Below, in pieces: positions 3,331 through 64,000 of a stretch of 64,000 nucleotides of DNA; within the stretch, counting starts at the first letter, position 1, and every line of letters begins with the position of its first letter. Where the stretch lies: the IMG/VR virus record IMGVR_UViG_3300014039_000035, one strand, 5' to 3'. The stretch comes from an uncultured virus (IMG/VR IMGVR_UViG_3300014039_000035). Taxonomy: Duplodnaviria > Heunggongvirae > Uroviricota > Caudoviricetes. The notes beneath the pieces are model-generated. The model made no database searches. It was given only the letters and a program-made list of their open reading frames with translations, and was not told the origin of the DNA. A program made the translations under genes and the position numbers.

Positions 3331-3339
3331 GACACAAAG

Positions 3340-9138: not shown

Positions 9139-9151
9139 TTTTAGTAAAACA

Positions 9152-9252
9152 ATCCCCAGCGTTCAAATAGCGGTGGAAGCACTATTCTACTAACAGGGGA
9201 TGCTAATTGTCTATTTTGCTATCTTCCACATAGCAATAACTATGCAAAAATA
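9152..9252 (-). promoter_or_regulatory. TAnnTTTG promoter plus kissing-loop leader of the HNH gene
   Basis: TATTTTTG at 9252-9245; hairpin loops GTGGAAG and CTTCCAC are complementary. Confidence 0.7.
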
Positions 9253-9264
9253 ATAGTTATCAGA

Positions 9265-14288: not shown

Positions 14289-14523
14289 ACCCCTATCTCC
14301 CCGTAACCGCACACAACATACTCGCCTTCCCCGGTAAGAACACCGAGGCTCGTCTGCGTGAGGGCGTCTATCGTGCCCCTCCGACCCGTCGCCAGAAGCA
14401 GGACCTCCTGCCCCAGACGAAGACTTTCCTTCGCTACCATAACGACCCGCCCAAGCCTTCAAAGACCGTGCCGGAAACACGAATGTATCTTTATACACTT
14501 AAAAATTTATGACCACTATTGAT

Positions 14524-15024
14524 AATCAATTACTTACATTTTTCACCCTTTTCAGTGTAGTTACACTACATTGAAACTACACTGGCGCAACTGACGGAGA
14601 GTGAATGAATTACAGCCGTCCAGTGTAGTTGTGTAGTCAGTGTAGGGCATCTCTAACTTTTTTCTCGTCTGTGTGCGTTCCTATAATATATACGCAGGAG
14701 AGTTTTTTAATGTTACGTGTGTATATAACTACATTACTACACTACATCTTCATAATTTACCACAAATCAATGCGTTATACCTATGTAGTTTGCGGTGATT
14801 TCTTATGCGATAGAGATTTATCGGCTTCAAAACTACATTGTGCCATTTTTTGGCACAAGCTCCCTATGGGTAAGGGCTGAAAATATCGAAAAAAAATTTT
14901 TTCAGGGTCACACCACCGCACCCTCGGTTTTCCTTGAAAACCCCCGCAACCCTTTGAATATCAAATAGTTACAGCCCTATTACGATGAAATGAATCTTGT
15001 AACTACTTGAAAATCAATGAGTTA
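14524..15024. other. putative replication origin or genome-end region with iterons and IHF-like sites
   Basis: 10 copies of ACTACA/TGTAGT in 14556-14837; four WATCAA-N4-TTA matches; lies between divergent arms. Confidence 0.6.
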
Positions 15025-21697: not shown

Positions 21698-21967
21698 ATG
21701 GCAAGTTACAAGAAAGAGTTCCTGGAATGGAAAAAACAGTACAAGGAAGACGAGTTCTACGACAGTCTTCCCGGTGTTGACTTGAAGATTGGCGACAAGG
21801 TGATGTTCACCAATTCGTCAGGGATAACGTTCGGGCCGTATGAGATTCTGGCCTTTCAGACACCCGATAAATATGGGCGGTGCGTCTTCATAGACCACGA
21901 CAGCTATTGGTTTCCGGCAACTTTAGAGTCATTGAGGCCATGTGGAAAAGAAAGAGCCGGAAGATAG
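21698..21967 (+). CDS. hypothetical SH3-like protein
   Basis: LKIGDKVMFTN motif. Confidence 0.55.
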   Translation: MASYKKEFLEWKKQYKEDEFYDSLPGVDLKIGDKVMFTNSSGITFGPYEILAFQTPDKYGRCVFIDHDSYWFPATLESLRPCGKERAGR

Positions 21968-22722
21968 ACATCAAGCCGATAGGCGATTCAAGGCCGTATG
22001 TCTTGTGGCGAAGGGTTTCCACGCAGGAGCAGGAGGTCTCTGGCCTTGGCTTGGAGGCGCAGTTGACCATAGCGAAGATGTTCATGGCAAGGGAGCCTGT
22101 GGCGGTGTTCACGGATGTCCATTCAGGAACGAAGTTGAAGGAGTGTGACCAGCTGTGGGAGGCGATACGCTACTGCAAGGCAAATGATTACGTCCTTTGC
22201 ATAGCGAAGAGTGACCGTCTGAGATCAGTGTCTGAGGCCTTGGACATTATAGACGCGATGGGCGAGCGCAATGTTGTGATATGCGATTTGCCTACTTGCG
22301 ACAGGTTTGTGCTGACCATCATGTTCGCGGTTTGGGAACGTCAGGCGCAGATGATACAGATAAACACACGTCTTGCGTTGGCGGAGCGTCAGAGACAGAT
22401 TGAGGTCAACGGCGGATTTTTCTCGAAGTCCGGTCGCTGGGTGAAGAAACTTGGCAGTCCAAAGGGTTATATGCCACGTCAGGCGATAGTTGCGGCAAAT
22501 GAGGCGTCAGCGGCCAAGGCGGTCGAATGGCGCAAGGAGTCACCTCTTTTCGCTTGGGTCGAGTTGCAGGTTTTCAAGCACCGGGCGAGGGTTGACATTC
22601 TGGCGGATGCGCAGGAACTTTACCGCAAGCATCCGGAGAAGTACGGTACACGCAACGGATGTCCGCTGAGTAAGGGTATATTAAGCAAGTGGATAAAGAT
22701 AATACAATTAAGCAATGACTAA
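21940..22722 (+). CDS. serine recombinase (resolvase family)
   Basis: RVSTQEQ..SGLGLEAQ, D..SG, K.DRL, ER..I..NT..AL. Confidence 0.9.
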   Translation: MWKRKSRKIDIKPIGDSRPYVLWRRVSTQEQEVSGLGLEAQLTIAKMFMAREPVAVFTDVHSGTKLKECDQLWEAIRYCKANDYVLCIAKSDRLRSVSEALDIIDAMGERNVVICDLPTCDRFVLTIMFAVWERQAQMIQINTRLALAERQRQIEVNGGFFSKSGRWVKKLGSPKGYMPRQAIVAANEASAAKAVEWRKESPLFAWVELQVFKHRARVDILADAQELYRKHPEKYGTRNGCPLSKGILSKWIKIIQLSND

Positions 22723-24703: not shown

Positions 24704-24783
24704 ATAAAAAAATACTCAAAAATATCTAAAATTATTTAAACATATTATTAACATTTTTCAAAATTGATACTATTTATATTTAG

Positions 24784-24883
24784 AAAACAAAAGTCAGACG
24801 TTGTTTTGGAATATTAGAGAAATTTAAGTTACAATACCTTCATGGCATCGTCTGACTTTAGTGCCAAGAAGGTTTTGTAACTT
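24784..24883 (+). promoter_or_regulatory. kissing-loop leader of tnpB
   Basis: Loops AAGTCAGACG (24791-24800) and CGTCTGACTT (24849-24858) are 10/10 complementary. Confidence 0.7.
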
Positions 24884-24894
24884 TTTTTATTTTT

Positions 24895-26535
24895 ATGATT
24901 ATTGACAGCAAATATACAAAAGTGTTCGTCTCCGATGATATAACCCGTTTGAAATATAACGAGTTACACGATGTTGCTGTCAATATCAGAGACCATAAGA
25001 ACAAGGTATCTGAATTCGTTTCCCATAACCTCCTAAAATATTTGGATTATTCCAATCTGACGTTTATGAAGGAAATGAGAACTGAATTCAAAAACCAAGT
25101 GGGTTCTTCGTTTGATGCTCAACTCTATACACAAGTACTGACTTGTTATCAAAACAAATTTGATAACATAAGAAAAAATCTTACTTTTGAAAAAGTCACT
25201 TATTCCCATTGTGAACTCTACAAAAGGAGCATCAAGATAAACAAGAAAGGTGATTTCAAAAAAGTAGTTAACAAACACGAAACCACAAGGTTGTCCATCT
25301 GTTTAAGTTACCTTGCACGATACGGGAATGATAATACCGTTGAATATATTAATTCTCAGATGCCTACTTGTGATGATAATAAGAAAGGCTATTACCAATC
25401 CATTTTGGATTGCTGCTCCAAGTTTGGATTCGAGCGATTGATGGGATTGGCGATGCAGAAACGTCAGCGAGCAATAGACAGATACAAGGATAACCCCATC
25501 GAATTCAAATCCCTTACATTCAGTGGCAGAAGCCGTAAAAAGAAAATCCTCGATTGGAACAAGAACTACAATTCTGAGATTAACGCATTCGTATCATTGT
25601 CAGGATTTGATAGGAAATCCATGGATATCCCCGTTAAATTTGCAAAGGATTACCACGGCTCGATGGGTGATTATTTCAAGGCGAATCCTGATTACGAATA
25701 CACCATTGTATTCAATGAACGAAAGAAATCGGTATCCATCAATCTTTGTAAGGACGGTGAAAGGTTTATCCCGGAGGCGGGTAATAACCTTATCGGGATT
25801 GACGTAAATTGCAAGCATAACTTATTCTCATTATCAGATAACTCTACGTATGATTATGACCGTCAGTTGGTTAATGATTATTGTAGGTTAGCGTTGGATA
25901 TAGATAAACGCAAGAAAAAGGATAAGGAGTACCAACCGGGAAAGAGAACCCAATGGAAACTGGATACCCTCAAAAAGAAAATGGACAAATCCGAGCAGAA
26001 CCTCATTGCCTTGATGTGCAAACAATTGGCATCAGAGGGATATAACCACATAGTGATGGAGGATTTGGATAATGGATTCGGAAAATGCTTTGTTAAGGAT
26101 AAGGATAATGAGGATATCAACTATAACCGCAAGGTCAAATTTCTTGGATTGTCAAGCCTCAAGAATGAGGTGGAGCATATTGCGAGGAACTACGGAATAG
26201 CGTTGTCCACGGTGCAAGCGAGTTACACGTCCAAGATGTGCCCAATATGCGGCTGTATCGAGGACGAGAACCGTCCCGACCAAGAGACATTCTGTTGCGT
26301 TGAATGTGGTCATTCAAGCAATGCTGATTTCAATGCGTCGGTGAATATAAGGAACAGAGTCAGCGAAGCCGTGCTTCGAGATAGGCTCTTAAAACAAAAG
26401 GATAATGGTGCCTACGAACCTAAAAAGATGAAAAGAGAAAAGGTTAAGGAGGTATTGTTATCGTTTCGGAAACACCTGCAAAAGGCAGGGAGTGAATGTA
26501 TTCAAACGGAGTTAAACACTTTTGAATATGTTTAA
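24895..26535 (+). CDS. tnpB: TnpB-family RNA-guided endonuclease (546 aa)
   Basis: RuvC GIDVN / VMEDL / NADFNA, YTSKMCPICG...CVECG zinc ribbon. Confidence 0.93.
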   Translation: MIIDSKYTKVFVSDDITRLKYNELHDVAVNIRDHKNKVSEFVSHNLLKYLDYSNLTFMKEMRTEFKNQVGSSFDAQLYTQVLTCYQNKFDNIRKNLTFEKVTYSHCELYKRSIKINKKGDFKKVVNKHETTRLSICLSYLARYGNDNTVEYINSQMPTCDDNKKGYYQSILDCCSKFGFERLMGLAMQKRQRAIDRYKDNPIEFKSLTFSGRSRKKKILDWNKNYNSEINAFVSLSGFDRKSMDIPVKFAKDYHGSMGDYFKANPDYEYTIVFNERKKSVSINLCKDGERFIPEAGNNLIGIDVNCKHNLFSLSDNSTYDYDRQLVNDYCRLALDIDKRKKKDKEYQPGKRTQWKLDTLKKKMDKSEQNLIALMCKQLASEGYNHIVMEDLDNGFGKCFVKDKDNEDINYNRKVKFLGLSSLKNEVEHIARNYGIALSTVQASYTSKMCPICGCIEDENRPDQETFCCVECGHSSNADFNASVNIRNRVSEAVLRDRLLKQKDNGAYEPKKMKREKVKEVLLSFRKHLQKAGSECIQTELNTFEYV

Positions 26536-28182: not shown

Positions 28183-28278
28183 GGTAAACGAATACCGCTT
28201 TTGCCGCCGAAGTGTGTTTCAAGCCAAGCCATTCAACATAGATAAAGGGAAGGGGCGGCCTTCCCTTAACTTTTAGAC

Positions 28279-28941
28279 ATGGGTAAAAAAGAGAAAAAAT
28301 GCTCCTTGTTCGAGGAGATGCTGATGTGGACTTCCTACCGTTATGCGATAGGAAGCAAGACATACGTGTCGTGTCTCGCCTACGAGATACCACAACACTA
28401 CTATCACAGGCTGACACCGGAAAGACGGCAGTTCACTGCGTATGACATACGCAGGGAGATATACGAGCGCTTGCGGATAGTGTTGCCGTTCGGGTTCAGA
28501 ATAGACCGGATGACAGATAAGGACAAACTCAATCCACTTGAAACGCTGTTCACTTTCTTTAATAGTGAAGTAGACTCGTTTGACGTGATGCAGACCTTGG
28601 CAAACCTTGTATATGACGCTCATTCCAATACATACAAGGTCGAAGAAAAGAAACCAATCTTCGAAAGTTCATTTTCTGTCAGCGACATCAACCACTTTAT
28701 ACCGTGGGAGACGTTCGCAAGTTGTTTCGACGATTCGGAGCATATAGTGGTAAACGGAAAGACGCTGTTCAAGACTTGGCAGCGAAAACTCGTCCCGGTT
28801 CCCGGCAAAGAATGTTGTTTTAGACAAGACAATTTCGGCTGGGAGCCAATATGGTATGACTTGGATAACTTCCTCGCAAACGGAGAGTATTCCGGGTATT
28901 GGACTGAAAAGGAGTTGGAAGAATGGCGAAAGTCGAAATAA
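28279..28941 (+). CDS. hypothetical protein
   Basis: 220 aa, SYRYAIGSKTY motif. Confidence 0.7.
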   Translation: MGKKEKKCSLFEEMLMWTSYRYAIGSKTYVSCLAYEIPQHYYHRLTPERRQFTAYDIRREIYERLRIVLPFGFRIDRMTDKDKLNPLETLFTFFNSEVDSFDVMQTLANLVYDAHSNTYKVEEKKPIFESSFSVSDINHFIPWETFASCFDDSEHIVVNGKTLFKTWQRKLVPVPGKECCFRQDNFGWEPIWYDLDNFLANGEYSGYWTEKELEEWRKSK

Positions 28942-29240
28942 ATCCGGGCGACCGTTTCGGCCACTGGGTTGTCCAGTCTTTCGCAGGATCAAAACTGCCG
29001 AGCAAGAACGCACCTTCCAAGTGCAAATATTTTCTTTGCAAATGTGACTGCGGAACAATCAGAGAGGTTAAAGGCTCGGACTTGAAGCGTGGCGTGTCGG
29101 AGAGCTGCGGATGTCTGAAAGGCGAACGCAGGTGGCACAAGGAAATCAAGTGGGAGCCGAGGGTAGCGGAGATTAAAGCGAAGCCGTACAGGCCGAAGCA
29201 CCCCGAAATGTTTAATGATGACTGGATGTTTAGTTTTTGA
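28923..29240 (+). CDS. Cys-rich domain protein (CKCDCG...SCGC, as found N-terminal to phage HNH/AP2 proteins)
   Basis: GDRFGHWVV, CKCDCG, SCGC. Confidence 0.7.
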   Translation: MAKVEINPGDRFGHWVVQSFAGSKLPSKNAPSKCKYFLCKCDCGTIREVKGSDLKRGVSESCGCLKGERRWHKEIKWEPRVAEIKAKPYRPKHPEMFNDDWMFSF

Positions 29241-41492: not shown

Positions 41493-41707
41493 ACTTTCAT
41501 CAATTATCAAAACCTGCATAGTTTGACTGCCCGGAACGTTCGAGACCTTGCGGCCCTACATTAGCCCCGCTCGCGACCGACACAAAGGGCCGCTCTCCCG
41601 CATTCGAGATGTTCTGACTCTCCGGCGCGACCTGCCACCGGGGTCAAGGCTGAGGGGATTCGCTGCCCCGTAGCTATCGGGGATGACGATGACAGGATTG
41701 TATGTAT

Positions 41708-41813
41708 GACGGGCGCCGTAATTCGAGTTCGTGATCGACCAAGCGTTGTTCGAGTTGACGTAGAACGGACCCGAGTTCGCCCCGTTATTAGCGGAACCAC
41801 CGACGAGACAAAC
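41708..41813 (-). repeat. DGR template repeat (TR)
   Basis: 106-bp ungapped match to the VR, rich in AAC/AAT codons. Confidence 0.95.
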
Positions 41814-41937: not shown

Positions 41938-43254
41938 CTAAATGGACCCTCCTCCCACTATTGTCACCGGGCCGTAGAATGCAGGACGGGCGCCGCAAGA
42001 CGAGTCCGCGACCGACCAAGCGTAGCTCGAGGTGACGTAGAACGGACCCGAGGTCGCCCCGTGAGGCGCGGAACCACCGACGAGACAAACCTGTCCTGTA
42101 TCATTGCCCCAAAAGTAATTGCACCAATAGGACGATGAGTCTCCCGACAGCCCAGAAGGGATGAGGTCGAAGTACTCTCCCTTTAGCATCTTTGACACAT
42201 AGCCGGAAGATGCCAGTCTTGTGAGCTTGCGGTAAAGCCCGTTCGGATGCGAAGCCAGCTCGGAGGCTGATGGCATTCTGTTGCCGGTGTAGACGAACAT
42301 TTCCGTGCCGTCCTGCCCCTCGTTGGCTGAGTTGCCGCAGAACAGGCCTTGGATGAAGTTCCACTGGCTGTTCCACCAGTCCTCCACACCGAGCACCGAC
42401 ACATGGCTTGAGTCCGACTTGGCGTCAGAGTCACTTATTGCCACGCTGCCGGTCGCGTCACCGAGACCCTTGGTTCCACCGGTCTTCCTTAGCGTGGTTG
42501 ACGCGAGGAACGCTGTCCAGTCTAATCCCGCTGCGCCTCCGACACCCTGTCCGATGCCGGCCTGAATGTTGGCGTTGCCCCCCGTCTCACAGAGGCACAT
42601 CATCCCTATCCAGCGCATGATGTCATAGTCAACGATGCCCCAGTTCGAGCCGAATGCCTGCGCGGCATTCCAGTATGCGTTGATGGAATACCCACCGGTG
42701 AAAAAGTCAACGCCTGAGCGTGACACAAGCTTGCTGGAGACGATGGAGCCTTGGTAAGCACCAACGACAATCTTCTCTCCGTTGTCTGCCGTGCCTATGA
42801 ACCGCTTGCTTATCGGCTGCTGAGACATCCACAGGTACGGGATGTTCGTCTCGGCATCCACCTGATAGAGATAGTAGAGCTTCGGGGCGATGACCACGAC
42901 GTTGCCCTTTGTCTCATCGAGTGTCGTGCCGTCAGCGAACACCCCTGAGTTGTTCGGGTGCAGCTTGGCCGCCCGTCCGTTGGCGTCCATGAGATACCTC
43001 CCCACCTGCGCCTTGTAGGCGTTGTAGGCGGCTGTGTTGCCTACCATACCCCAAGCCGGTGATGATTGAAGCTCGTCCTTGATTGGGATACCCCAAGCCA
43101 CGGAGTGCAGAAGCTGCGTCTGCCCTGAGTTGACAGCCGCAAGGAACTCCTCCACGGTGATCCTCCGTATGGAACCGCCCACCTCCACGATGAGCGAGTC
43201 CGATTTCAGTAGTGACGCAACAGTTGTGACCGTGCCTAATTCCTGATTTGCCAT
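41938..43254 (-). CDS. DGR target protein, probable receptor-binding tail protein with C-type lectin-fold C-terminus
   Basis: GVEDWWNSQWNF, then GG.A..G...G...GAR carrying the VR. Confidence 0.88.
   Translation of the reverse strand: MANQELGTVTTVASLLKSDSLIVEVGGSIRRITVEEFLAAVNSGQTQLLHSVAWGIPIKDELQSSPAWGMVGNTAAYNAYKAQVGRYLMDANGRAAKLHPNNSGVFADGTTLDETKGNVVVIAPKLYYLYQVDAETNIPYLWMSQQPISKRFIGTADNGEKIVVGAYQGSIVSSKLVSRSGVDFFTGGYSINAYWNAAQAFGSNWGIVDYDIMRWIGMMCLCETGGNANIQAGIGQGVGGAAGLDWTAFLASTTLRKTGGTKGLGDATGSVAISDSDAKSDSSHVSVLGVEDWWNSQWNFIQGLFCGNSANEGQDGTEMFVYTGNRMPSASELASHPNGLYRKLTRLASSGYVSKMLKGEYFDLIPSGLSGDSSSYWCNYFWGNDTGQVCLVGGSAPHGATSGPFYVTSSYAWSVADSSCGARPAFYGPVTIVGGGSI
41985..42090 (-). repeat. 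DGR variable repeat (VR)
   Basis: 14 differences from TR, 13 of them at TR adenines. Confidence 0.95.
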
Positions 43255-55851: not shown

Positions 55852-56158
55852 TTTTTTGTTCCTCCTTGATTATGTATGACTGTAAATCCTCTTCGCCTGT
55901 CGGCAACCCAAAGTTACGAAGAATATTGTTAACCTCGGCCTTTGACTTGCGAGTTCCCGAAACGGTAAGTAGCTTGTCCTCCTGCTCATAGTCGTAGTCG
56001 TAATACCCCTTGTCCACCATCCACATCGTCACGAGGTTGGCGGAGTCCAGATACCAGTAACGCAGCCACGACCAGAAGTTGTAGTTCCCGTAGACGTTCT
56101 TTATCCGCTCGTTGTGCGTCGAGGTCTCAAAGGCAGACCCTACTTGTCTTCCTTTTTT
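55823..56158 (-). CDS. -1 frameshift extension of the tail assembly chaperone (gpGT-like)
   Basis: -1 frame open from both G GGT TTT (56296-56290) and A AAA AAG (56158-56152) to 55823. Confidence 0.65.
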   Translation of the reverse strand, partial: KKGRQVGSAFETSTHNERIKNVYGNYNFWSWLRYWYLDSANLVTMWMVDKGYYDYDYEQEDKLLTVSGTRKSKAEVNNILRNFGLPTGEEDLQSYIIKEEQKNGGGDTGSH

Positions 56159-56667
56159 ATCCCCAAACCGTCCTTCTCCAACATATTTAGTGTATTCTCC
56201 AGCCGCTCGCGCGCTTCTTTGGCGGCTTCGCCAACCGGCCTCATAAACAGTTCGCGTTCCTGCCTTGAGAGCTGCCAGTTGGCTTTGGAAAAACCCACGT
56301 CCTCGCTCACGGCCCCCGCCCCGTTTATCTTGAACGTCACCTCATCGCCACGGAGCTGCAACAGCCGCCACTTTATAGCCCAGAGCCAAGGACAGAATAT
56401 CGCCCAGTTACCCAAAAGGTAGTAAGCCGCCTTCTTCGAGTGCAGCGAATAGAGTTTCTTTGTCAGCCGCCTCGCCGTCTTGCTGTCAACGCCCATCTTG
56501 CCTTTCGCCTCAAGCACCTGCGCCTCCTGCTCAAGCAAGGCTATCCGCTCCTTGACCGCCTGCGCCACCTGCCTGACCTTGTATTTCCGACCGCCAGCCT
56601 CTATCACGCACGGCGCCTGCATCACGGTCTCGTACTCGCCGGATATGAATTTGTCCGATTTTTCCAT
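56140..56667 (-). CDS. tail assembly chaperone (gpG-like)
   Basis: Between the major tail and tape measure genes; contains slippery heptamers. Confidence 0.75.
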   Translation of the reverse strand: MEKSDKFISGEYETVMQAPCVIEAGGRKYKVRQVAQAVKERIALLEQEAQVLEAKGKMGVDSKTARRLTKKLYSLHSKKAAYYLLGNWAIFCPWLWAIKWRLLQLRGDEVTFKINGAGAVSEDVGFSKANWQLSRQERELFMRPVGEAAKEARERLENTLNMLEKDGLGIKKEDK

Positions 56668-56694
56668 AATTGTTCTAATTTTCCTTTTTTATCG

Positions 56695-56728
56695 AAAAAA
56701 GGGGACGGAACAAAACATTCCGTCCCCG
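56695..56728 (-). terminator. intrinsic terminator after the major tail gene
   Basis: GGGGACGGAA/TTCCGTCCCC 10-bp stem followed by T6 on the minus strand. Confidence 0.85.
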
Positions 56729-56756
56729 CGATTCGCTCCTCGAAAGAAGGATACCA

Positions 56757-57404
56757 TTAACCGCCGTCTTCGCCTGCTGTGCCGTCAAGGGTCGCCGCAG
56801 TGATGCTGCCATCAGCGTAGTCAACGCTGGTTGTAGAAGACAGAATCATGCAGGTCTTGAGGGTCGCACTGTCCATGAACTCAGCTGTGGCCACAACGTG
56901 AAGCCTCCAAAGGTTGTCGCTCCAAGAAAGGGAGGCCGCCATCTTCGCCTTAGGGAAGAAGATTGCCCTGTTGCCCTCGTCGTTGGTAATCATGAGAGGA
57001 CGCACCTTGACCGGAAGTTTGTGTCCGAAGCCGTAGCAGGTAACGGTGCCGTCCTTGAACACAGCCGTAGCGCCACCAGTAGCCACGGTGATTGATTCCG
57101 CGCCAAGGAACGCCGCAATGAAGTCAGCCTCAAGGTCGGCAAGGTCGAAGGACACCTGATGGGTTCCGTTGGTAGCCCTTGAGGTGATTACGTCGCCCTG
57201 CTCGTCAAGAATCTGACTGAAAGACACCTGCTCGCCGTCCCACGAGGTTGAGTCCTGTACGACCTGCCCAAGGCTCGCGCCGTTGGTCAGAACGTTGGCA
57301 AGCGTGGTGGAGGAGGTATAACCGCCGGCTGGCGCGCTGAACACGATGATGTCGCCCTGTCCGGCAAGAAGCTGCTGTGAGCCTCCAAGATTTTTTACTG
57401 CCAT
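56757..57404 (-). CDS. major tail tube protein
   Basis: 215 aa, synteny, downstream terminator. Confidence 0.75.
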   Translation of the reverse strand: MAVKNLGGSQQLLAGQGDIIVFSAPAGGYTSSTTLANVLTNGASLGQVVQDSTSWDGEQVSFSQILDEQGDVITSRATNGTHQVSFDLADLEADFIAAFLGAESITVATGGATAVFKDGTVTCYGFGHKLPVKVRPLMITNDEGNRAIFFPKAKMAASLSWSDNLWRLHVVATAEFMDSATLKTCMILSSTTSVDYADGSITAATLDGTAGEDGG

Positions 57405-57406
57405 AA

Positions 57407-57859
57407 TTATTGCTTGTTAAAATTGTTGTTCGTATGCCACCTCAAATTGAGGCTTGTGACTGAATAGCCCGAAGTCTGGTTCGGTGATGTAGGGGTTATG
57501 AAACGCTCCATGTCGTATCGGTAGACGTAGTTTTCCGTCACCGCTCCCTCCACGAGTTTGTCGAACTGCTCCAGAATCTTCTTGACGCGGTTGGCCTTGA
57601 CCGATCCGTCATCATTCAGTTTGGAGTAGAGACTCACAAGAAGGTAGCCCGATGCGTAGTCCACTTTCGCACCTACGCCCTCGATGTCGCCGTTCACGTA
57701 GATGACTATGAAATCCGCGGGCAGTCCGTTGGTCGGGCGCTCCCAGTCGCTGTAAACAGTGACCTTCTCCGTCTTGCCGCCGGGCTGGCCAACGCTTATC
57801 TTGCCGTCAAGCAGCGCTTTCAGCTCCGTGTCCGGGTTTATGTGCGATGCGTGCATCAT
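57407..57859 (-). CDS. tail terminator / completion protein
   Basis: Synteny. Confidence 0.6.
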   Translation of the reverse strand: MMHASHINPDTELKALLDGKISVGQPGGKTEKVTVYSDWERPTNGLPADFIVIYVNGDIEGVGAKVDYASGYLLVSLYSKLNDDGSVKANRVKKILEQFDKLVEGAVTENYVYRYDMERFITPTSPNQTSGYSVTSLNLRWHTNNNFNKQ

Positions 57860-58383
57860 ATATTACCGTCTTTTGACAATCCAAGGGCAGGAAGCCTTGA
57901 TTCCAGTGTGTTGTTGAACGTCTCTTGCAGCCAATCCAGATAACCCGGCTTCGAGCTGTCCTCGTCAGCGGCTCCGGCGTAAGGCACGGCGACGATAAGC
58001 GTCGAGCCGATGCCTTTCGACAAAGGCTTGCTGTCCCGGACAGCCTTGATGGCCTCACGATAACCCCAGATTTTCTTGTAGCGGCTTTCGCCGTTGTCGG
58101 TCTTCGGGGCGCTTATCTTCGTGACGTGCTGCGGCTTTGAGGCAAGCTGTGGCATATAGCAGGCCCTTATTACTCGGCCGCTCTTCGACACATACGCGGC
58201 GATACTGTCATGCAGGTTGCCGGTGTAAACCGGGATGGATTCCCGATTGCGGTCAACAAACGCCAGAAAGGACTGCGTTGCGTCGGTCATAAGCCTTTCA
58301 GCCCTGCGGTTGAAGCCCTTGGCCGATTTCAGCAGCTCCTCCTGAAATTGTCTCTGCGTTGTGTTCCACTTTGTCCTTGACAT
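57856..58383 (-). CDS. HK97 gp10-like neck/tail completion protein
   Basis: PVYTGNLHDSI, VPYA. Confidence 0.75.
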   Translation of the reverse strand: MSRTKWNTTQRQFQEELLKSAKGFNRRAERLMTDATQSFLAFVDRNRESIPVYTGNLHDSIAAYVSKSGRVIRACYMPQLASKPQHVTKISAPKTDNGESRYKKIWGYREAIKAVRDSKPLSKGIGSTLIVAVPYAGAADEDSSKPGYLDWLQETFNNTLESRLPALGLSKDGNI

Positions 58384-58385
58384 GG

Positions 58386-58721
58386 TTAATCCCCCTGCGC
58401 CTGTTTCAGTTCAACCCTTGTACACTGCAAATTGGCTCTCCAAGGCATGTTTATGTCCCTGACTATCTCCGCAACCCCCGTGATTTCACGTCCCTGCTCG
58501 GTCGTGACCGAAACAGAGTCGTTTATCATCACCATAACCTCATTGCCCGGCAGATAGACGGAAGGAACCCTCGTCACGATTGACCGTGAATATCCGGTGC
58601 CGCCCTCCTCGTAGAGGCACGGACCAGAATAGACCACGGAACGCTCCGGGTTGTCCCATTCGTCCTTCTTTCCCGTCAGACGGCTTATGGTGCATTTGTC
58701 GCGGAAACCTATCAGTCGCAT
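58386..58721 (-). CDS. head closure protein
   Basis: CTISR...DEW.....VVYSGPC; synteny. Confidence 0.65.
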   Translation of the reverse strand: MRLIGFRDKCTISRLTGKKDEWDNPERSVVYSGPCLYEEGGTGYSRSIVTRVPSVYLPGNEVMVMINDSVSVTTEQGREITGVAEIVRDINMPWRANLQCTRVELKQAQGD

Positions 58722-58724
58722 GAA

Positions 58725-59156
58725 CTACTTGCTCCTCAGATAACTTGCGTCATACATTTCGCTGGAGGACTCATCCTCCTCGACGTCGAGACCCCACTTC
58801 AAGCGGAGCGCGTCGCCCATCGCCTTGAACCTCGCGCGGTCTGCCATCGTGATGGTGTAACCGCCTCTGGAAGCACGGACGTCGCCGACCTGCTCGGAGT
58901 AGCCCCCGCCAGCGAAAACCCCCAACACCGAATAGTAGATTGTCGAAGAGGCATAGTCCAGACGCTTCTGGAAATCCTCGTCCTTCGAGCGGTCGGACAC
59001 CACCTCGCCGTCCTCACCATAGACGTAATCAACATCCTCCGTGAGGGTGAGGCGGTCAAGCCCTATCTCGATGGGACTCCTTGCCGCGCGGGCAACAACT
59101 GTGTCCTGCAAGTCCAAACCTTGCACCAAACTACGCAGATACTCTTCGACAGTCAT
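58725..59156 (-). CDS. head-tail adaptor protein
   Basis: MTVEEYL..; directly after the capsid gene. Confidence 0.65.
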   Translation of the reverse strand: MTVEEYLRSLVQGLDLQDTVVARAARSPIEIGLDRLTLTEDVDYVYGEDGEVVSDRSKDEDFQKRLDYASSTIYYSVLGVFAGGGYSEQVGDVRASRGGYTITMADRARFKAMGDALRLKWGLDVEEDESSSEMYDASYLRSK

Positions 59157-59171
59157 ACTTCGGTTTTATTT

Positions 59172-60386
59172 TTAGCTCGTGTAAGTGATGAGATAGTACA
59201 TCTCCTTCGGACGGGTCGGAACGCAAAGCGCGTTCAGCTCTGACCACCAGTCCTGTGTCCTCGAACGCTTGTCGTAATCGTACTGGATAAGACCCCTGCC
59301 GTCGAAGAACTTAGCGTAGATTGCGCTGTCATCCGGTGTGAGAGCAAGCGTGGTCTTGATTGTTCCGATAGGACCCGCAGGATAGAACACGTAGGTGTTC
59401 GCGTTGAAGGTCCTAAAGGTCTTGCGCACGAGCTTGGCGTCAGGGCCCTTGCCTTCAAGTGTCTCCACTCCGGCAAGACCCTTGCGCAGATGCACGTTTG
59501 CAGCCGGGATGCCGATGACCTTGGCGAAAAGGCTCACAAGCTCCTCGTCACCAGCCGCGTTGCCGACGGCAAGGGCGTTGGAGTCGTTGTTGCCAATCAC
59601 AAGGTCAGGACGGAGAATGTAGCCGAAAGCGGTGCGCCACTTCGGATGATCCATGTCCTCGAGGAATGAGATGTAGTCTACCTCGCAGACGATGTCCATG
59701 TAACCGGCTCTCTTCATCTTGCGGATGATGGCCTTAACGTCGCTTACAGGGTCTGCGTCAGTGTTGGCGTTAGCCGTGGTCTTCTCGGTGTCGCTGTTGA
59801 ACCATCTCTTCGCCTTGGCGACGGTGGTCACGTTGGCGGCAGGAACGTCAGCCTCGAACACGAGACCCTTGATGCCCCTTGGGTTGTTTTTGGCGTCAAG
59901 CGACAGCTTCCTGTTGGAAACCATCTGGTCGCGCTGGTAGGTCATTGAAAGTTCGTGCGCGCTCTGGATGTCCTTCATTCCGTTGAAGAGAAGGTCAAGA
60001 GCGTACTGCTTCGCCGTCTTGTCCTGGAAGTCAAGGTCCTGAAGGGCGGCGAGGTACTTGCGGTAGTCGTCAGCATCCCAGAGGAAGCGTGCCTTCATCG
60101 TAGGCACAACGCCGCTTGTCTCCTCGAATCCCTCCGTGCCGAAAGGGATCGCCTCGGAGTCCTTGTCGGTGTAGGTGGCCATCACCTTCACGCGGTTGGA
60201 CATCACAAGGTTCTTGAAGTCGAAAGTAAGGGATGAATATTCGTCCCAGTTGAAGCCGTCAAGGTTGAGTCCCTGAATGTTGTTGAACCCAACCACGTCG
60301 TTGATGTAGAGACCAAAGCTCTTGGAGGACAGGATACCCGCCTCGCTCATCAAGGTGTAGAAACCTTTTGCGTACTTGTTTGCCAT
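59172..60386 (-). CDS. major capsid protein
   Basis: 404 aa following scaffold and decoration genes. Confidence 0.8.
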   Translation of the reverse strand: MANKYAKGFYTLMSEAGILSSKSFGLYINDVVGFNNIQGLNLDGFNWDEYSSLTFDFKNLVMSNRVKVMATYTDKDSEAIPFGTEGFEETSGVVPTMKARFLWDADDYRKYLAALQDLDFQDKTAKQYALDLLFNGMKDIQSAHELSMTYQRDQMVSNRKLSLDAKNNPRGIKGLVFEADVPAANVTTVAKAKRWFNSDTEKTTANANTDADPVSDVKAIIRKMKRAGYMDIVCEVDYISFLEDMDHPKWRTAFGYILRPDLVIGNNDSNALAVGNAAGDEELVSLFAKVIGIPAANVHLRKGLAGVETLEGKGPDAKLVRKTFRTFNANTYVFYPAGPIGTIKTTLALTPDDSAIYAKFFDGRGLIQYDYDKRSRTQDWWSELNALCVPTRPKEMYYLITYTS

Positions 60387-60403
60387 ATTCTATTCCTCCT
60401 TTT

Positions 60404-61036
60404 TTAAGCGGTCTCGTTCTCGAATGTGATTCCAGGCATCGCCGCCTTGTAGAAGTCAGGCACAGCAGCGATTCTGTCGCCAAGAATCTGGCCCTTGGTA
60501 ACAACCGCCACAGTACCCTTGCCGCCCTCGGCGTCAACGTAAATCTGTCTCCAAGACAGTCCGTCCGGAAGCACGGCGGCCTTGTTCTCGCCAGCCTCGG
60601 ACACGATGTAGAGCTTATCGCCCTTGGCTAATGTGCCGAGTGCATTGGCGGTGATAGTGAAAGTGTAAACGCCATCCGCAACGGACGGTGTTCCTGAAAG
60701 AGCCGCTGCAAGGGCAGCCTTCCCGGTAGAGTCGCACTTGCCGAGGATAAGGCCAGCCTTAGGCACAACAGCACCGTTGAGTGGCTTTATCTTCAATGTA
60801 GTGGCGGAAGCGGACACGGCGGCCTCGACCTCAAAAGTCTCAAGGAACTTCGCCTCGCCGCCCATGGTCTTGAGCGACACAGGAATGCCGAGAGGTATCA
60901 ATGTACCCTTCGCCACGCCCGTAAGGTCAACGGTTCCACCCGCGACCTTGCGCTCCTTCACCTCAAGCCACACCGGCATCGTAGCCGCGTCGTACTGCTT
61001 TGAGTCGGAGCCGTAGAAATTTCCAAAATTGCTCAT
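60404..61036 (-). CDS. head decoration / minor capsid protein
   Basis: Synteny; GTLIPLG.PV motif. Confidence 0.65.
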   Translation of the reverse strand: MSNFGNFYGSDSKQYDAATMPVWLEVKERKVAGGTVDLTGVAKGTLIPLGIPVSLKTMGGEAKFLETFEVEAAVSASATTLKIKPLNGAVVPKAGLILGKCDSTGKAALAAALSGTPSVADGVYTFTITANALGTLAKGDKLYIVSEAGENKAAVLPDGLSWRQIYVDAEGGKGTVAVVTKGQILGDRIAAVPDFYKAAMPGITFENETA

Positions 61037-61061
61037 TTGTTAAACATTTAATGGGTTGATG

Positions 61062-61772
61062 TCACTTTGTGTCGGGAAGCAGACCCTGCGCCTTCTTCCG
61101 GGCAATCTCTGCGCTCCAGTCAACCGTGCCGTCCTCCTCGTTCTTAGGAGGGTCAGCCTTGAACGGCTGCGACGTGTCCACGCCGAGACGGGACACCGCC
61201 TTGTTGAAGTAGCCGGACGCCTTCGCCGAAAGCTCCTCAGCGGTCATCTTGCTTCCCGTCGCCTCGTTCAGCTCCACGGCGCGCTCCCATGCCTCGTCCG
61301 CCTGGTCCTTGTACTTCTTGGCGTAGTCGCCGTTGAAGAAGGACTCGTGCGCCGCGCTGAGGGCAGCCTTCGCTGTGTTCGAGGTCTCCAGAGCCGTAAT
61401 CTTCTCGTTGAGCGGGGCGACTGCCTCGGCTATGGCCGCCTTGACTATCGATGCGATGTCTGGCGAGCCTTCACCCTCTTTGCCTTCATTACCCTCGCCC
61501 CCCTTGTCCTTGTCTGGCTCCGGGTGCGCCGCCTTGTAAGCCTCAAAAGCACGCTGAGACTCGCTGTTCCTCTGAATAGCCTGGTCACGCTGCCTCTGAA
61601 TCTCCTTGGCAATCAAGTCCAACGTGGTCGCGTCAGCAACCGCTCCCTCGATGTCCTCCTCCTTCTCGACAGTCTTTTCACGAAGCGACGCAATCCTGTC
61701 AAGAGCGTCGTTGCTCAATCCGTATGCCTTGTACTTCGTCTTGAGCGCCTCTAAAATCTGTTCTTTCAACAT
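61062..61772 (-). CDS. capsid scaffolding protein
   Basis: ILEALKTKY..YGLS; acidic, helical; TAACTTTG promoter at 61797-61790. Confidence 0.75.
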   Translation of the reverse strand: MLKEQILEALKTKYKAYGLSNDALDRIASLREKTVEKEEDIEGAVADATTLDLIAKEIQRQRDQAIQRNSESQRAFEAYKAAHPEPDKDKGGEGNEGKEGEGSPDIASIVKAAIAEAVAPLNEKITALETSNTAKAALSAAHESFFNGDYAKKYKDQADEAWERAVELNEATGSKMTAEELSAKASGYFNKAVSRLGVDTSQPFKADPPKNEEDGTVDWSAEIARKKAQGLLPDTK

Positions 61773-61830
61773 ATTTCCAACTTTTTATGCAAAGTTATAA
61801 GGATTTTTCTAAAGTTTGGCATAATTTGTG

Positions 61831-61933
61831 TAACTTTGTTCCGTGTCGAGGTCCAGACGACAAAAGAAGAAAGTTATACGTCCCCCGTGCGAGTACGTCT
61901 GTGCTGGACCCACCGACCGAAAACACGAGGGAC
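61831..61933 (+). promoter_or_regulatory. TAACTTTG promoter plus kissing-loop leader of the endonuclease gene
   Basis: Loops GGTCCAG (61850-61856) and CTGGACC (61904-61910) are complementary. Confidence 0.7.
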
Positions 61934-61946
61934 TTTTTGTGTTATC

Positions 61947-63119
61947 ATGGGTATACGAAAAACTCAAGAGCAATTCATCAAGGAAGCCTATGCACTCCAC
62001 GGAGACCATTATGACTTCTCAAAAGCCGTCTATACGAACAGCAAAGACAAAATGTCAGTCTACTGCAACATTCACCACAAATTCTTCTCGACGACGCCAA
62101 ATCAGATATTGCGTGGTTCGGGTTGCCCGGAGTGCGGACTTGCGTCGAGAATAGCAAAAAGAACCGACACGACAGAATCTTTCATTGCGAAAGCAAGAAA
62201 GGTTCACGGTGACAAATATGATTACTCTAAAGTTGTCTATGAAAAATCAGACATACCGGTGACAATCACATGCAAAAAGTGCGGAAAAGACTTCAAGCAG
62301 TCACCTAACACTCATCTGATGGGCCACGGATGCGAGGCTTGTTCTTACAAGGAAAGGGGAATCCGAAGAGCAAAGGGGATTGATATTTTTACGGCCGAGG
62401 CAAGAGCTGTATGGGGCGAGGCTTATGACTATTCATCGGTTGTTTACAAAAACAGCAAAACCAGAGTAGATATAATATGTCCAAAACACGGCGTTTTCTC
62501 TACTACACCATATCAACATTTGAAAGAAGGCGTGGGGTGTCCGCAGTGCAAAAGAGAATCCCGGTTGCTATATGGTATCGCTGTGAACGATGTGCCAAAC
62601 TGCAATCCTAAATGCTTACAAACCTGGGTTGGGATGTTGCATAGATGTTATTATGAAAAAGAACTGGAGCGCCATCCGACATACCGTGGATGCTCCGTGT
62701 GTGAAGAATGGCTTAGACTGTCTGGATTCGTGCCGTTCTGGGAGGCAAATTATCGCCCAAAATATGAGTTGGAGAAAGACATCCTTGTGAAAGGCAATAA
62801 AGTGTACAGTCCGGACACTTGTTGCTTTGTGCCACGACGGATTAATCTCCTACTTACAAACAGAAAGCGATTCCGTGGAAATTTGCCCATCGGGGTGTCA
62901 CTCTCTGAAAGCGGACTTAGATACAAGGCTACCTATGACAGAGACGCGAAAGCAACACTTGTTGGGTATTTCGACACGGTAGAAGAAGCATTCCTCGCAT
63001 ACAAAAAAGCAAAAGAAGAATATATCAAGAAGGTGGCGCAAAAATACTACGATTCCGGTAAAATTGGCCAAAAGGTTCACGAAGCCCTTCTTCGTTATCA
63101 AATCGAAATCACCGACTAA
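61947..63119 (+). CDS. putative homing endonuclease: three HGDKYDYS/zinc-ribbon repeats plus HNH-like and AP2-like C-terminus
   Basis: 3x YD(Y/F)S..Y...C..(H)G...GC..C; W.GMLHRCY, LEKDIL..GNKVYSP.TCCFVP, GYFDTVEEA. Confidence 0.8.
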   Translation: MGIRKTQEQFIKEAYALHGDHYDFSKAVYTNSKDKMSVYCNIHHKFFSTTPNQILRGSGCPECGLASRIAKRTDTTESFIAKARKVHGDKYDYSKVVYEKSDIPVTITCKKCGKDFKQSPNTHLMGHGCEACSYKERGIRRAKGIDIFTAEARAVWGEAYDYSSVVYKNSKTRVDIICPKHGVFSTTPYQHLKEGVGCPQCKRESRLLYGIAVNDVPNCNPKCLQTWVGMLHRCYYEKELERHPTYRGCSVCEEWLRLSGFVPFWEANYRPKYELEKDILVKGNKVYSPDTCCFVPRRINLLLTNRKRFRGNLPIGVSLSESGLRYKATYDRDAKATLVGYFDTVEEAFLAYKKAKEEYIKKVAQKYYDSGKIGQKVHEALLRYQIEITD

Positions 63120-63157
63120 TTTATGAATACCGCAGAAATATTTGCTATTTTTGCGGT

Positions 63158-64000
63158 ATGTTTAGACTTCTAAAAGAACATAAACCCTTTCCCACACAGT
63201 ATGACCATATTGTGCGCAAAAATCCCACAAAAAACAGCAAGGGATATGACAAAATGGTCGGACCGGAAGGGGAGTTTTATCTTCGGGACAAAATAGACTT
63301 TGCCCCACAAAAAGGTCTTCAAGAAAACGCTTGCCGTGACGATTCTGATGTAATATTCCTTGCCGGTGCCATTCAGATGGGCAAAACATATTTGCAGATG
63401 CTCAAAGCGCTATACGGTATAGACAAACCGGGGTATTCCGGCAGGTTCATTTCAGTAAGACTGCAAGACTCGAAAAAAGGTAGCTCGCTTTATCGTGACG
63501 CCGTGGAGATATGGGGAAACTTTGCGGATTGTCAATACACATCAAGCGATTATCCGGCTTTCACTTGGCCGCAGACCAATTCAAGTATTCTGATGACGCA
63601 CTCGAATTTTAATGTGGACAATCCATCGGAATACCTTGATTTTAAGGAGTTTGCCAAGAAGAATAGTGCCAGTTTTATCGCAGTGGACGAATTTTCAGAC
63701 ATGAGCTTCAAAATGTGGACATATTGGTTCGGGCGAAATCGCGATGCCTCTGGTATGAAACCTTGTATGATAGCGAGCTTCAATCCCGAATATCAACATT
63801 TCTCTACACAGATGCTGCTTGACGGCGGCTATATCGGGAGCGACTACTTCGTTATCCCCGAAATGGTCGGCAAGCAACGCTTCTTCTACATAGACGGTGA
63901 CGAACCAGAAAACATCATCTGGGGCGACACAAGAGCGGAAGTGGCTTCAAGAGCCAATATCGTGATAACCGAAAAGGAAGCAGCGGCGGGTATCACACCG
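63158..64000 (+). CDS. terminase large subunit, 5' part (runs off the window)
   Basis: Manual translation: PQKGLQE, Walker A IFLAGAIQMGKT, Walker B FIAVDE, NRD, SFNP. Confidence 0.85.
   Translation, partial: MFRLLKEHKPFPTQYDHIVRKNPTKNSKGYDKMVGPEGEFYLRDKIDFAPQKGLQENACRDDSDVIFLAGAIQMGKTYLQMLKALYGIDKPGYSGRFISVRLQDSKKGSSLYRDAVEIWGNFADCQYTSSDYPAFTWPQTNSSILMTHSNFNVDNPSEYLDFKEFAKKNSASFIAVDEFSDMSFKMWTYWFGRNRDASGMKPCMIASFNPEYQHFSTQMLLDGGYIGSDYFVIPEMVGKQRFFYIDGDEPENIIWGDTRAEVASRANIVITEKEAAAGITP

What the first reader, a model, noticed from the sequence alone, without database searches (positions are those of the whole stretch)
61831..61947. Kissing-loop leader RNA, copy 3, upstream of the zinc-ribbon/HNH-like endonuclease
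Seen: a TAACTTTG promoter, TGTCG-[AGGTCCAGA]-CGACA, a spacer, a long hairpin GTCCC.CGTG...GTC.GTG-[CTGGACC]-CAC.GAC...CACG.GGGAC, a U-tract and ATG 61947. The loops are 7/7 complementary. Three independent occurrences, each before a different selfish nuclease and not noticed before other genes, argue against chance. This also places the true start at 61947 rather than 61836.
Basis: partly seen in the sequence, partly recalled or inferred. Interest (0 to 1): 0.8.

Follow-up and report, generated by a model that had tools for sequence, protein, structure and literature searches.

The report
Kissing-loop leader RNA of phage nucleases
The stretch is one copy of a real folded RNA leader, not in Rfam, whose two hairpin tips pair with each other; Bacteroidales-type phages carry it with its own promoter in front of selfish DNA-cutting-enzyme genes, probably to keep those genes weakly expressed.

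Summary
The two loops are 7 of 7 complementary.

The window holds three copies, each directly before a nuclease gene:
- 9139-9252 (-), before a NUMOD4/HNH_3 gene;
- 24775-24894 (+), before a TnpB-like gene;
- 61831-61946 (+), before the Zn-ribbon/AP2-type endonuclease gene.

A covariance model finds 4, 3, 1 and 2 further copies in four related phage records. All eleven copies in the window and the three fully fetched records end at most 19 nt before a nuclease start codon.

In 13 aligned leaders the loop-loop helix, which the model did not encode, pairs in 100% of cells. Six of its 7 positions change on both sides. I saw twelve different complementary loop pairs in all. The stems also covary, frequent G-U pairs point to sense-strand RNA, and an AGUA/GAA internal loop is kept in 12 of 13.

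Rfam has no match, and three literature searches found no description. A relative without the nuclease gene has terL directly behind its own promoter, so promoter, leader and nuclease gene form an inserted cassette. ATG 61947 is the true start.

Function is inferred. The long hairpin looks like an elaborated intrinsic terminator 13 nt before the AUG, so it most likely throttles nuclease expression. Earlier notes of this scan describe the same family in other genomes.

The parts
61831..61838 (+). Promoter -7 box TAACTTTG (Bacteroidetes type TANNTTTG). With G at -5 the predicted transcript start is about 61843, one base before hairpin 1.
   Evidence: Consensus and numbering from PMC6847099 (passages). 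A box of this type lies 3-9 nt before hairpin 1 in the nine leaders counted.
61844..61862 (+). Hairpin 1: 5-bp stem TGTCG/CGACA and a 9-nt loop. The loop heptamer GGTCCAG (61850-61856) is kissing partner 1.
   Evidence: All 5 stem pairs covary (helix 1).
61863..61879 (+). Single-stranded purine-rich linker of 17 nt. An AGAAA-like core recurs in the family.
61880..61933 (+). Long hairpin. From base to tip: GC-rich outer stem; internal loop AGUA (61892-61895) opposite GAA (61919-61921); inner stems; 7-nt apical loop CTGGACC (61904-61910), which is kissing partner 2.
   Evidence: helices 3 and 4 are 93-94% paired, and 13 of their 16 pairs change on both sides.
61934..61946 (+). U-rich tail (TTTTTGTGTTATC), 13 nt between the stem base and the start codon.
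   Evidence: Tails read are mostly 12-14 nt (19 in L014).
61947..63119 (+). Endonuclease gene of 390 aa. It has CapR/DUF4379/DUF723 zinc ribbons and an AP2-like C-terminal part, and matches PHROG 'HNH endonuclease' families.
   Evidence: Start codon supported.
63146..63160 (+). terL's own promoter box TATTTTTG, 4 nt, then ATG 63158. It marks the downstream edge of the inserted cassette.
   Evidence: The nuclease-less relative L193 has the same arrangement directly after the scaffold-gene intergenic region.
9139..9252 (-). Second copy in the window. Parts: -7 box at 9245-9252; hairpin 1 at 9216-9236 with loop GTGGAAG; long hairpin at 9152-9201 with loop CTTCCAC and AGUA/GAA; tail at 9139-9151. 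The ATG at 9138 starts the NUMOD4/HNH_3 gene 8569-9138.
   Evidence: 23 bits; 79 bits.
24775..24894 (+). Third, divergent copy. Parts: near-consensus box TATATTTA; hairpin 1 at 24784-24807 with loop GTCAGACG; long hairpin at 24828-24881 with loop CGTCTGAC (8 of 8); 13-nt T-rich tail. It has no AGUA/GAA. It precedes the TnpB-like gene 24895-26535.
   Evidence: 13.8 bits, E 0.5, so weak by the model; found by the sequence-blind descriptor; homologue L213 keeps the design with other letters.

Best explanation
**What it is.** This is one copy of a conserved, pseudoknotted 5' leader RNA that belongs to mobile nuclease-gene cassettes of Bacteroidales-type phages. A host-type promoter (TANNTTTG) starts the transcript at or just before a small hairpin. 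The seven loop bases of that hairpin pair with the seven-base apical loop of a long second hairpin, a 'kissing' contact. The second hairpin carries a sarcin-ricin-like AGUA/GAA internal loop. Its GC-rich base is followed by a U-rich run, and it ends 13 nt before the AUG.

**Shown here.** The fold, the loop-loop pairing, its link to nuclease genes, and that it travels with the nuclease gene as an insert.

**Inferred.** The long hairpin acts as a promoter-proximal intrinsic terminator, an attenuator. Most transcripts would stop after about 95 nt, and only read-through makes nuclease, so a potentially harmful selfish enzyme stays scarce and insulated from neighbouring genes. The kissing contact and the AGUA/GAA loop would lock the fold. 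Alternatively, they are the point where a protein tunes read-through.

**My odds.**
- Real structured RNA: 0.97.
- Cis-acting control element of the cassette: 0.85.
- Attenuator as the main mechanism: about 0.45.
For: **Structure.**
- One search used 13 leaders and 28 pairs. 95.8% of cells are paired, against 68.5% in shuffles (0 of 500 reach it) and 31-45% when partners are slid by 1-3 columns.
- The kissing helix was not part of the model that made the alignment. It is paired in 100% of cells, with 6 of 7 pairs changed on both sides.
- Orthologous leaders L071 and L070 differ by two matched double changes: GTACGAG/CTCGTAC against GGTCGAG/CTCGACC.
- G-U is the commonest pair at three positions, which fits sense-strand RNA.

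**Association with nuclease genes.**
- R2 finds 4 copies in G003, 3 in G004, 1 in G005 and 2 in G002. All eleven copies in the window, G003, G004 and G005 end at most 19 nt before a nuclease ATG.
- The sequence-blind descriptor gave 11 hits on 264 kb. Nine lie before nuclease genes, 2 lie inside long open frames, and none lies before any other gene.

**Cassette.** L193 lacks both the leader and the nuclease gene. terL sits behind its own promoter there, and the window keeps that promoter after the nuclease stop codon.

**Terminator likeness.**
- Every copy whose tail I read has a GC-rich stem base followed by a U-rich run. That includes divergent ones whose sequence is unrelated.
- In L148 a run of eight U comes before a separate GGAGG.
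- The only three R2 matches in 121 bacterial genomes are plain A-tract/hairpin/U-tract terminators that match the leader's base.

**Precedent.** T-even homing endonuclease genes are held down by terminators and RNA hairpins (PMC2988022, passages).
Against: - No expression data exist. No RNA run was listed, so termination, read-through and the transcript start are all unproven.
- In some copies the U run starts 2-4 nt after the stem (L070, L196).
- A terminator does not by itself explain the tight stem-to-AUG distance, the kissing contact or the invariant AGUA/GAA loop.
- The single-sequence fold is not unusually stable (z -1.09).
- The leader is not universal. Two of the window's five nuclease-like genes lack it (13854-14498 and 28923-29240). 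Of 9 HNH_3 genes in G003 and G004, 4 have it, 3 have a different leader and 2 have none. Of 47 loci with relatives of the 8569-9138 gene, R2 finds only the window's own copy; one more (L056) was seen by eye.
- The descriptor gives 2-8 hits in shuffled sequence, and it missed copy 3 itself because the outer stem is interrupted.
Confidence: 0.55

Rival explanations
1. Translation control. The compact fold ends at about -14, the edge of the ribosome's footprint. It would set how often the 30S subunit loads on these mRNAs, which lack a Shine-Dalgarno sequence. It could block standby binding, or insulate the start region from upstream RNA.
For: The stem-to-AUG distance is mostly 12-14 nt in the tails I read. 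This holds in the unrelated-looking TnpB-type (13 in both) and L056 (13) versions. Bacteroidetes initiation is tuned by structure between -20 and +20, and bS1 is placed near -12 to -15 (PMC6847099, passages). Phage 25 seg43(25) has a stable hairpin just upstream of its ribosome-binding site that does not sequester it (PMC2988022).
Against: The start codon and the 13 nt before it are left unpaired, so there is no classical occlusion. U-rich tails are not the A-rich context reported as favourable. L014 (19 nt) and L148, where a separate GGAGG follows the U run, break the spacing rule.
Confidence: 0.2
2. The product is a stable RNA of about 95 nt in its own right. It could be a protein decoy or a trans-acting RNA, or it could multimerise through intermolecular loop-loop pairing. 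The nuclease gene would merely ride on read-through.
For: The element has a consensus promoter, a 5'-terminal hairpin and a terminator-like 3' end, which is the anatomy of a small RNA gene. The AGUA/GAA sarcin-ricin motif is a known docking site for proteins and RNAs (PMC5737476, passage). Each copy within a genome has a different loop pair.
Against: Every copy is fused at a nearly fixed distance to a nuclease start codon and is never found alone. No conserved single-stranded seed exists apart from the short linker. The loops are complementary within one molecule.
Confidence: 0.12
3. Operator for a phage or host protein. The protein would recognise the shape of the kissing complex, with the AGUA/GAA loop, rather than its sequence. 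It would time all nuclease cassettes together, for example through antitermination late in infection.
For: The loop letters vary freely while the geometry, the AGUA/GAA loop and the linker core stay fixed. Recalled, not tested here: ColE1 Rom binds RNA I/RNA II kissing complexes irrespective of loop sequence.
Against: No candidate protein was identified. The TnpB-type and L056 versions lack AGUA/GAA.
Confidence: 0.1
4. Chance palindromes, or a DNA-level signal such as a transposon end or a homing-site feature.
For: The heptamer alone is not enriched. The loose descriptor hits shuffled DNA 2-8 times per 264 kb. The copy before TnpB could in principle be an insertion-sequence end.
Against: Twelve different, perfectly complementary loop pairs were seen. 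Compensatory changes occur in all four helices. G-U pairs would be C-A mismatches on the other strand. Orientation relative to the promoter and the ATG is always the same.
Confidence: 0.02

Closest known systems
Regulatory RNA structures and terminators of T-even phage homing-endonuclease genes: I-TevI/II/III, segB, Aeh1 mobE, the T4 mobE and segF internal terminators, and the phage 25 seg43(25) hairpin (PMC2988022, passages read)
   Same: These are cis RNA structures next to selfish nuclease genes in phages, thought to keep expression low or late. About 30% of transcripts stop at the mobE terminator. seg43(25) has a stable hairpin just upstream of the start region that does not sequester it.
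   Different: Those are single hairpins. Most hide the ribosome-binding site and have a late promoter inside them. Here the promoter lies upstream, the start region is free, two hairpins kiss, an AGUA/GAA loop is conserved, and the element moves with the gene across at least three nuclease families.
Intrinsic (Rho-independent) terminators and leader attenuators
   Same: A GC-rich stem base, an upstream A-rich run and a downstream U-rich run. Model R2 picks up ordinary Bacteroidales terminators through this part.
   Different: The stem is extended by about 35 nt of conserved structure, and its tip is tied to a 5' hairpin. No alternative antiterminator pairing was found. Termination is untested.
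Loop-loop (kissing) RNA regulators: ColE1 RNA I/RNA II with Rom, the guanidine-II (mini-ykkC) riboswitch, and purine-riboswitch L2-L3 (all recalled, not tested here)
   Same: Seven-base loops that pair completely. The contact stabilises a regulatory fold.
   Different: Here the contact is presumably within one molecule, between a 5'-terminal hairpin and a terminator-like hairpin. The loop letters are free, whereas guanidine-II has fixed ACGR loops. No ligand is known. Rfam models gave no match.
Sarcin-ricin / bulged-G motif, GAA-AGUA (PMC5737476, passage read)
   Same: The same two strands, AGUA opposite GAA, flanked by helices. They are kept in 12 of 13 aligned leaders.
   Different: Identified from sequence alone, with no structural proof. 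Absent from the TnpB-type and L056 versions.

Membership tests
Kissing-loop nuclease-gene leader (uncatalogued; defined here by model R2) | Match to the covariance model | tested here: met
   61842-61943 scores 90.8 bits, E 3.6e-22. It also scored 46 bits with R1, which was built only from two foreign sequences.
Kissing-loop nuclease-gene leader (uncatalogued; defined here by model R2) | Loop of hairpin 1 fully complementary to the apical loop of the long hairpin | tested here: met
   GGTCCAG/CTGGACC, 7 of 7. Across the family 100% of cells are paired.
Kissing-loop nuclease-gene leader (uncatalogued; defined here by model R2) | TANNTTTG box just upstream, U-rich tail, and the start codon of a nuclease gene within about 20 nt | tested here: met
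   Box at 61831-61838, 13-nt tail, ATG at 61947, PHROG 'HNH endonuclease' gene.
Any Rfam 15 family (including HEARO, mini-ykkC and self-cleaving ribozymes) | Score at or above the gathering threshold | tested here: not met
   0 hits in the whole window at gathering score. Only noise up to E 10 around copies 3 and 1.
Intrinsic terminator / attenuator | GC-rich hairpin directly followed by a U run | tested here: inconclusive
   The feature is present by eye in every copy I read, and R2 cross-matches true terminators. The simple scan finds none here because of the long loop and internal loops.
Intrinsic terminator / attenuator | RNA 3' ends at the U run in vivo or in vitro | not testable with these tools
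   No RNA run was listed.
T-even type hairpins that sequester the ribosome-binding site of endonuclease genes | Start region paired inside the hairpin, with a late or middle promoter embedded in it | tested here: not met
   The AUG and the 13 nt before it lie outside both hairpins. The promoter lies upstream of hairpin 1.
TnpB/IscB guide (omega) RNA | Scaffold RNA at the element end with a free guide segment | tested here: not met
   No Rfam match. Both variable segments pair with each other. The same leader precedes HNH genes that are not RNA-guided.

The most novel reading that the evidence does not exclude
The leader is a portable, conditional expression switch that selfish nuclease genes of unrelated families carry with them between phages. 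Its terminator would be opened or closed through the kissing complex and the sarcin-ricin-like loop by a factor that reads shape rather than sequence. Each cassette's private loop pair would prevent cross-talk between co-resident copies. That would be a dedicated RNA control system for genomic parasites, and a ready-made regulatory part for Bacteroidota.
Probability: 0.25. Interest if true: 0.8.

Novelty: new variant of a known kind. Interest (0 to 1): 0.7.

Why it matters
- It is a structured RNA family with clean covariation, including a proven-by-covariation loop-loop contact. It is absent from Rfam 15, and three literature searches found no description.
- It ties together three or more unrelated selfish nuclease families. 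That makes the old question of how phages tolerate homing endonucleases testable outside T4, in gut and rumen Bacteroidota phages.
- It corrects gene starts. Here it removes 37 spurious codons.
- It marks cassette boundaries and insertion hotspots, such as the site upstream of terL.
- It offers a compact promoter-plus-leader part for Bacteroides engineering.
- Earlier notes of this scan report the same design in at least 21 other genomes. The family is therefore broad, and this copy is one more well-documented member rather than a first sighting.

Tried and rejected
- **RNA evidence:** no RNA holder was listed for window 56000-64000.
- **Own assembly:** it is not held.
- **MAFFT alignments:** alignments of the divergent copies put the outer stem out of register. 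I therefore seeded the model from two near-identical foreign sequences and let Infernal align the rest.
- **Hairpin-1 pattern scan:** Of the 80 loci fetched, 5 had the loop's complement downstream: 4 true leaders and 1 chance hit. It served only as a control.
- **Bacterial relatives:** 3 of 121 genomes matched, and all three matches are plain terminators.
- **Relatives of the 8569-9138 HNH gene, the TnpB-like gene and the capsid gene:** among 58 loci R2 found only the window's own copy and one plain terminator.
- **L056 and the TnpB-type leaders:** these are seen by eye and by the descriptor but not significantly by the model. I call them the same design, not proven homologues.
- **A leader before the HNH-like gene 13854-14498:** none found.
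- **Antiterminator-type alternative pairing:** I looked by eye for pairing between hairpin 1 or the linker and the outer stem and found none.
- **Linker/U-run pairing:** it is possible, but the sequence is too simple to judge.
- **Phage collection search:** blastn of 61000-64000 against the 'phages' collection gave no match.
- **Earlier notes by place and by sequence:** nothing.
Full report
**Observation.**
- The box TAACTTTG lies at 61831-61838. The alternative TTG start at 61836 lies inside it.
- Hairpin TGTCG-[AGGTCCAGA]-CGACA lies at 61844-61862.
- A 17-nt purine-rich linker follows.
- A 54-nt hairpin spans 61880-61933 and has the apical loop CTGGACC.
- Then come TTTTT and, 13 nt after the stem, ATG 61947.
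- GGTCCAG (61850-61856) and CTGGACC (61904-61910) are exact reverse complements.

Taken alone this is not beyond chance. The heptamer occurs 8 times in the window against 7.4 expected. The fold of the single sequence has a z-score of only -1.09.

**The other copies in the window.** A first simple two-hairpin script found a twin on the minus strand at 9152-9236. It lies between a TATTTTTG box and the ATG of a NUMOD4/HNH_3/NUMOD1 gene at 8569-9138. Its stems have other letters and its loops are GTGGAAG/CTTCCAC.

I seeded covariance model R1 only from two foreign leaders, L013 and L016. In the window it found three matches:
- 61842-61943, at 46 bits;
- 9141-9237 (-), at 23 bits;
- 24791-24890, weakly, at 13.8 bits and E 0.5.

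The third lies before the TnpB-like gene 24895-26535, which matches Pfam Cas12f1-like_TNB. It has a 7-bp hairpin 1 with loop GTCAGACG, a long hairpin with CGTCTGAC in its tip (8 of 8), and a 13-nt T-rich tail.

**Relatives.** Protein and pattern searches of viral contigs brought in related records, and model R2 was run on whole records.
- G003 (73.7 kb, complete) has 4 strong copies.
- G004 (68.7 kb) has 3.
- G005 has 1.
- G128 (72.8 kb, complete) has 2.
- G002, a fragment of the window's own phage, has 2.

All eleven copies in the window, G003, G004 and G005 end 0-9 nt before the ATG as measured from the model's end, which is at most 19 nt from the stem. In each case the ATG opens an endonuclease-type frame. 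Pfam gives NUMOD4/HNH_3/NUMOD1 (I-HmuI-like) for most of them. For the relatives of the 61947 gene it gives zinc ribbons of the DUF723, DUF4379 and CapR types. In L196 an 87-aa frame stands between the leader and the nuclease gene.

I saw twelve complementary pairs:
- GGTCCAG/CTGGACC
- GTGGAAG/CTTCCAC
- GGACGAG/CTCGTCC
- GTACGAG/CTCGTAC
- GGTCGAG/CTCGACC
- ATGACGG/CCGTCAT
- GTAGAAG/CTTCTAC
- ATGCGAG/CTCGCAT
- GTCAGACG/CGTCTGAC
- GTGGAAGC/GCTTCCAC, before a TnpB homologue of 59% identity (L213)
- CCACCAC/GTGGTGG (L056)
- a 10-base pair in L196

**Covariation.** I used the 13-row alignment that R2 produced (A8). The model has no pseudoknot, so the alignment was not fitted to the loop-loop pairing.
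- 95.8% of 357 cells are paired, against 68.5% in shuffles. None of 500 shuffles reaches the observed value.
- When partners are slid by 1-3 columns, pairing falls to 31-45%.
- 24 of 28 pairs change on both sides.
- The kissing helix is paired in 100% of cells, and 6 of its 7 pairs change on both sides.

Two caveats apply. The 13 rows contain near-duplicates, so they hold only seven independent loop pairs. The nested helices were fitted by the model.

G-U is the commonest pair at three positions and frequent at two more. That fits a structure on the sense-strand RNA and not on the opposite strand. An internal loop with AGUA on the 5' side and GAA on the 3' side is kept in 12 of 13 rows. That pair of strands forms the sarcin-ricin, or bulged-G, motif, a known docking site (PMC5737476, passage). 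The identification here rests on sequence only.

**Specificity.** I wrote a descriptor that uses no sequence information. It requires:
- hairpin 1 with at least 5 bp;
- an exact complement of at least 7 nt in the tip of a later hairpin;
- an enclosing stem of at least 6 bp;
- an ATG 6-24 nt further on.

On the window plus G003, G004 and G005 (264 kb, both strands) it gave 11 hits. Nine are the leaders before nuclease genes, 2 lie inside long open frames, and none lies before any other kind of gene. Ten shuffles gave 2-8 hits, so the descriptor alone is weak. It also missed copy 3 itself and the G005 copy, because their outer stem is interrupted.

The leader is not universal for nuclease genes.
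- In the window, 13854-14498 and 28923-29240 (PHROG HNH matches) lack it.
- Of 9 HNH_3 genes in G003 and G004, 4 have it, 3 have a different structured leader and 2 have none.
- R2 found it in none of 46 foreign loci that hold relatives of the 8569-9138 gene. L056 has the design by eye.
- In 121 bacterial genomes around the nearest held genome, the only three matches are ordinary terminators.

**Cassette and gene start.** L193 is a relative with terL at 78% identity and no nuclease gene. Its terL ATG follows its own TATCTTTG box after 6 nt, and there is no leader. The window keeps the same arrangement, TATTTTTG then 4 nt then ATG 63158, after the nuclease stop codon. Promoter, leader and nuclease gene are therefore an insert upstream of terL. 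L194/L195 and L196/L197 carry other inserts at that site.

In L013 and L016 an in-frame stop lies 45-48 nt before the ATG, with no other start codon. Their N-termini (T.EEFI.KA) align with MGIRKTQEQFIKEA. 61947 is therefore the start, and 61836 is an artefact of an open frame running through the leader.

**Host.** The TANNTTTG box is the Bacteroidetes -7 element, with its G at -5 (PMC6847099, passages). That puts the transcript start at about 61843, one base before hairpin 1. In the nine leaders counted, hairpin 1 starts 3-9 nt after the box. The capsid protein has an 84% identical match on a contig titled as a Bacteroidales MAG and a 31% match in a Dysgonomonas genome.

**How it most likely works (inferred).** The base of the long hairpin is 4-5 G-C pairs followed by a U-rich run in every version I read, and an A-rich linker precedes it. 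In L148 a run of eight U comes before a separate GGAGG. The model cross-matches true Bacteroidales terminators through exactly this part. I therefore read the long hairpin as an intrinsic terminator extended at its tip. The whole element would be a promoter-proximal attenuator that lets only a fraction of transcripts reach the nuclease gene. This matches what is described for T-even homing endonuclease genes: terminators in mobE and segF, and hairpins at I-TevI, segB and Aeh1 mobE (PMC2988022, passages).

The kissing contact and the AGUA/GAA loop then either lock the fold or give a protein a sequence-independent handle. The main rival is translation control. The distance from stem to AUG is mostly 12-14 nt, even in the unrelated-looking TnpB-type versions. 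That places the fold at the edge of the ribosome footprint in a phylum where initiation depends on local structure. A free-standing small RNA and a protein operator are also not excluded. No RNA data were available.

**Comparison and novelty.** Rfam 15 has no match at the gathering score in the whole window. Nothing meaningful appears up to E 10 around two copies. Three full-text searches returned nothing describing such a leader; for those papers I saw listings only.
- **Nearest known kind:** the regulatory hairpins and terminators of T-even endonuclease genes.
- **Differences:** the upstream promoter, the free start region, the loop-loop pseudoknot, the sarcin-ricin-like loop, and portability across nuclease families.
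- **Classification:** a new variant of a known kind.

After I had reached this reading, the scan's own notes showed that other agents had described the same design. They report it before HNH, GIY-YIG and tnpB genes in at least 21 other genomes and reach the same tentative function. Those are unchecked AI notes. They agree with my reading but are not independent evidence.

**Verdict.** The structure is as good as proven by covariation. The function is plausible but untested.

Noticed in passing
L200 (G003) about 10088-10215 (-) and 3219-3345 (-); L207 (G004) about 130-263 (+): A second, different structured leader stands before other NUMOD4/HNH_3 genes. After a TANNTTTG box comes a long-range stem. 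The stem encloses a hairpin with the conserved loop AGTAGCTA and a 7-nt box (GCTGACA or GCAACGG). The complement of that box occurs twice downstream, the second time right before the ATG. The letters covary between paralogues.
   Followed up: partly
window 63146-63160; L193, L194/L195, L196/L197: terL is read from a promoter only 4-6 nt before its start codon, so it is probably leaderless. The site just upstream of terL is an insertion hotspot: empty in L193, a different Cys-rich gene in L194/L195, and an 87-aa frame plus a nuclease gene in L196/L197.
   Followed up: partly
window 21880-22722 and 24895-26535: A serine-recombinase (Resolvase) gene lies 2 kb upstream of the 546-aa TnpB-like gene, with small frames between them. 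I did not examine whether they form one IS607-like element, or where its ends lie relative to the leader.
   Followed up: no
window 14560-14860: The intergenic region between divergently oriented gene blocks is dense with TGTAGT/ACTACA repeats in both orientations. They could be operator or origin-like iterons.
   Followed up: no
L041 about 1400-1500: Before another HNH gene stands a terminator-like hairpin whose loop (TGTAAATGC) is complementary to an upstream segment (GCATTTACA). This may be a further pseudoknot-leader variant. R2 does not match it.
   Followed up: no
window 9253-9283 (-): An AT-rich hairpin overlaps the -7 box of the promoter of the 9139-9252 leader copy.
   Followed up: no
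window 41702-41813 and 41979-42090: A 112-nt direct repeat at 86% identity, spaced 277 nt apart, within the minus-strand gene block 33851-61772.
   Followed up: no
window 28236-28281: A plain GC-rich hairpin (GGGAAGG/CCTTCCC) and a short T run end 11 nt before the ATG of the 220-aa frame 28279-28941. So hairpin-then-start is not unique to nuclease genes, but this one has no kissing partner.
   Followed up: no
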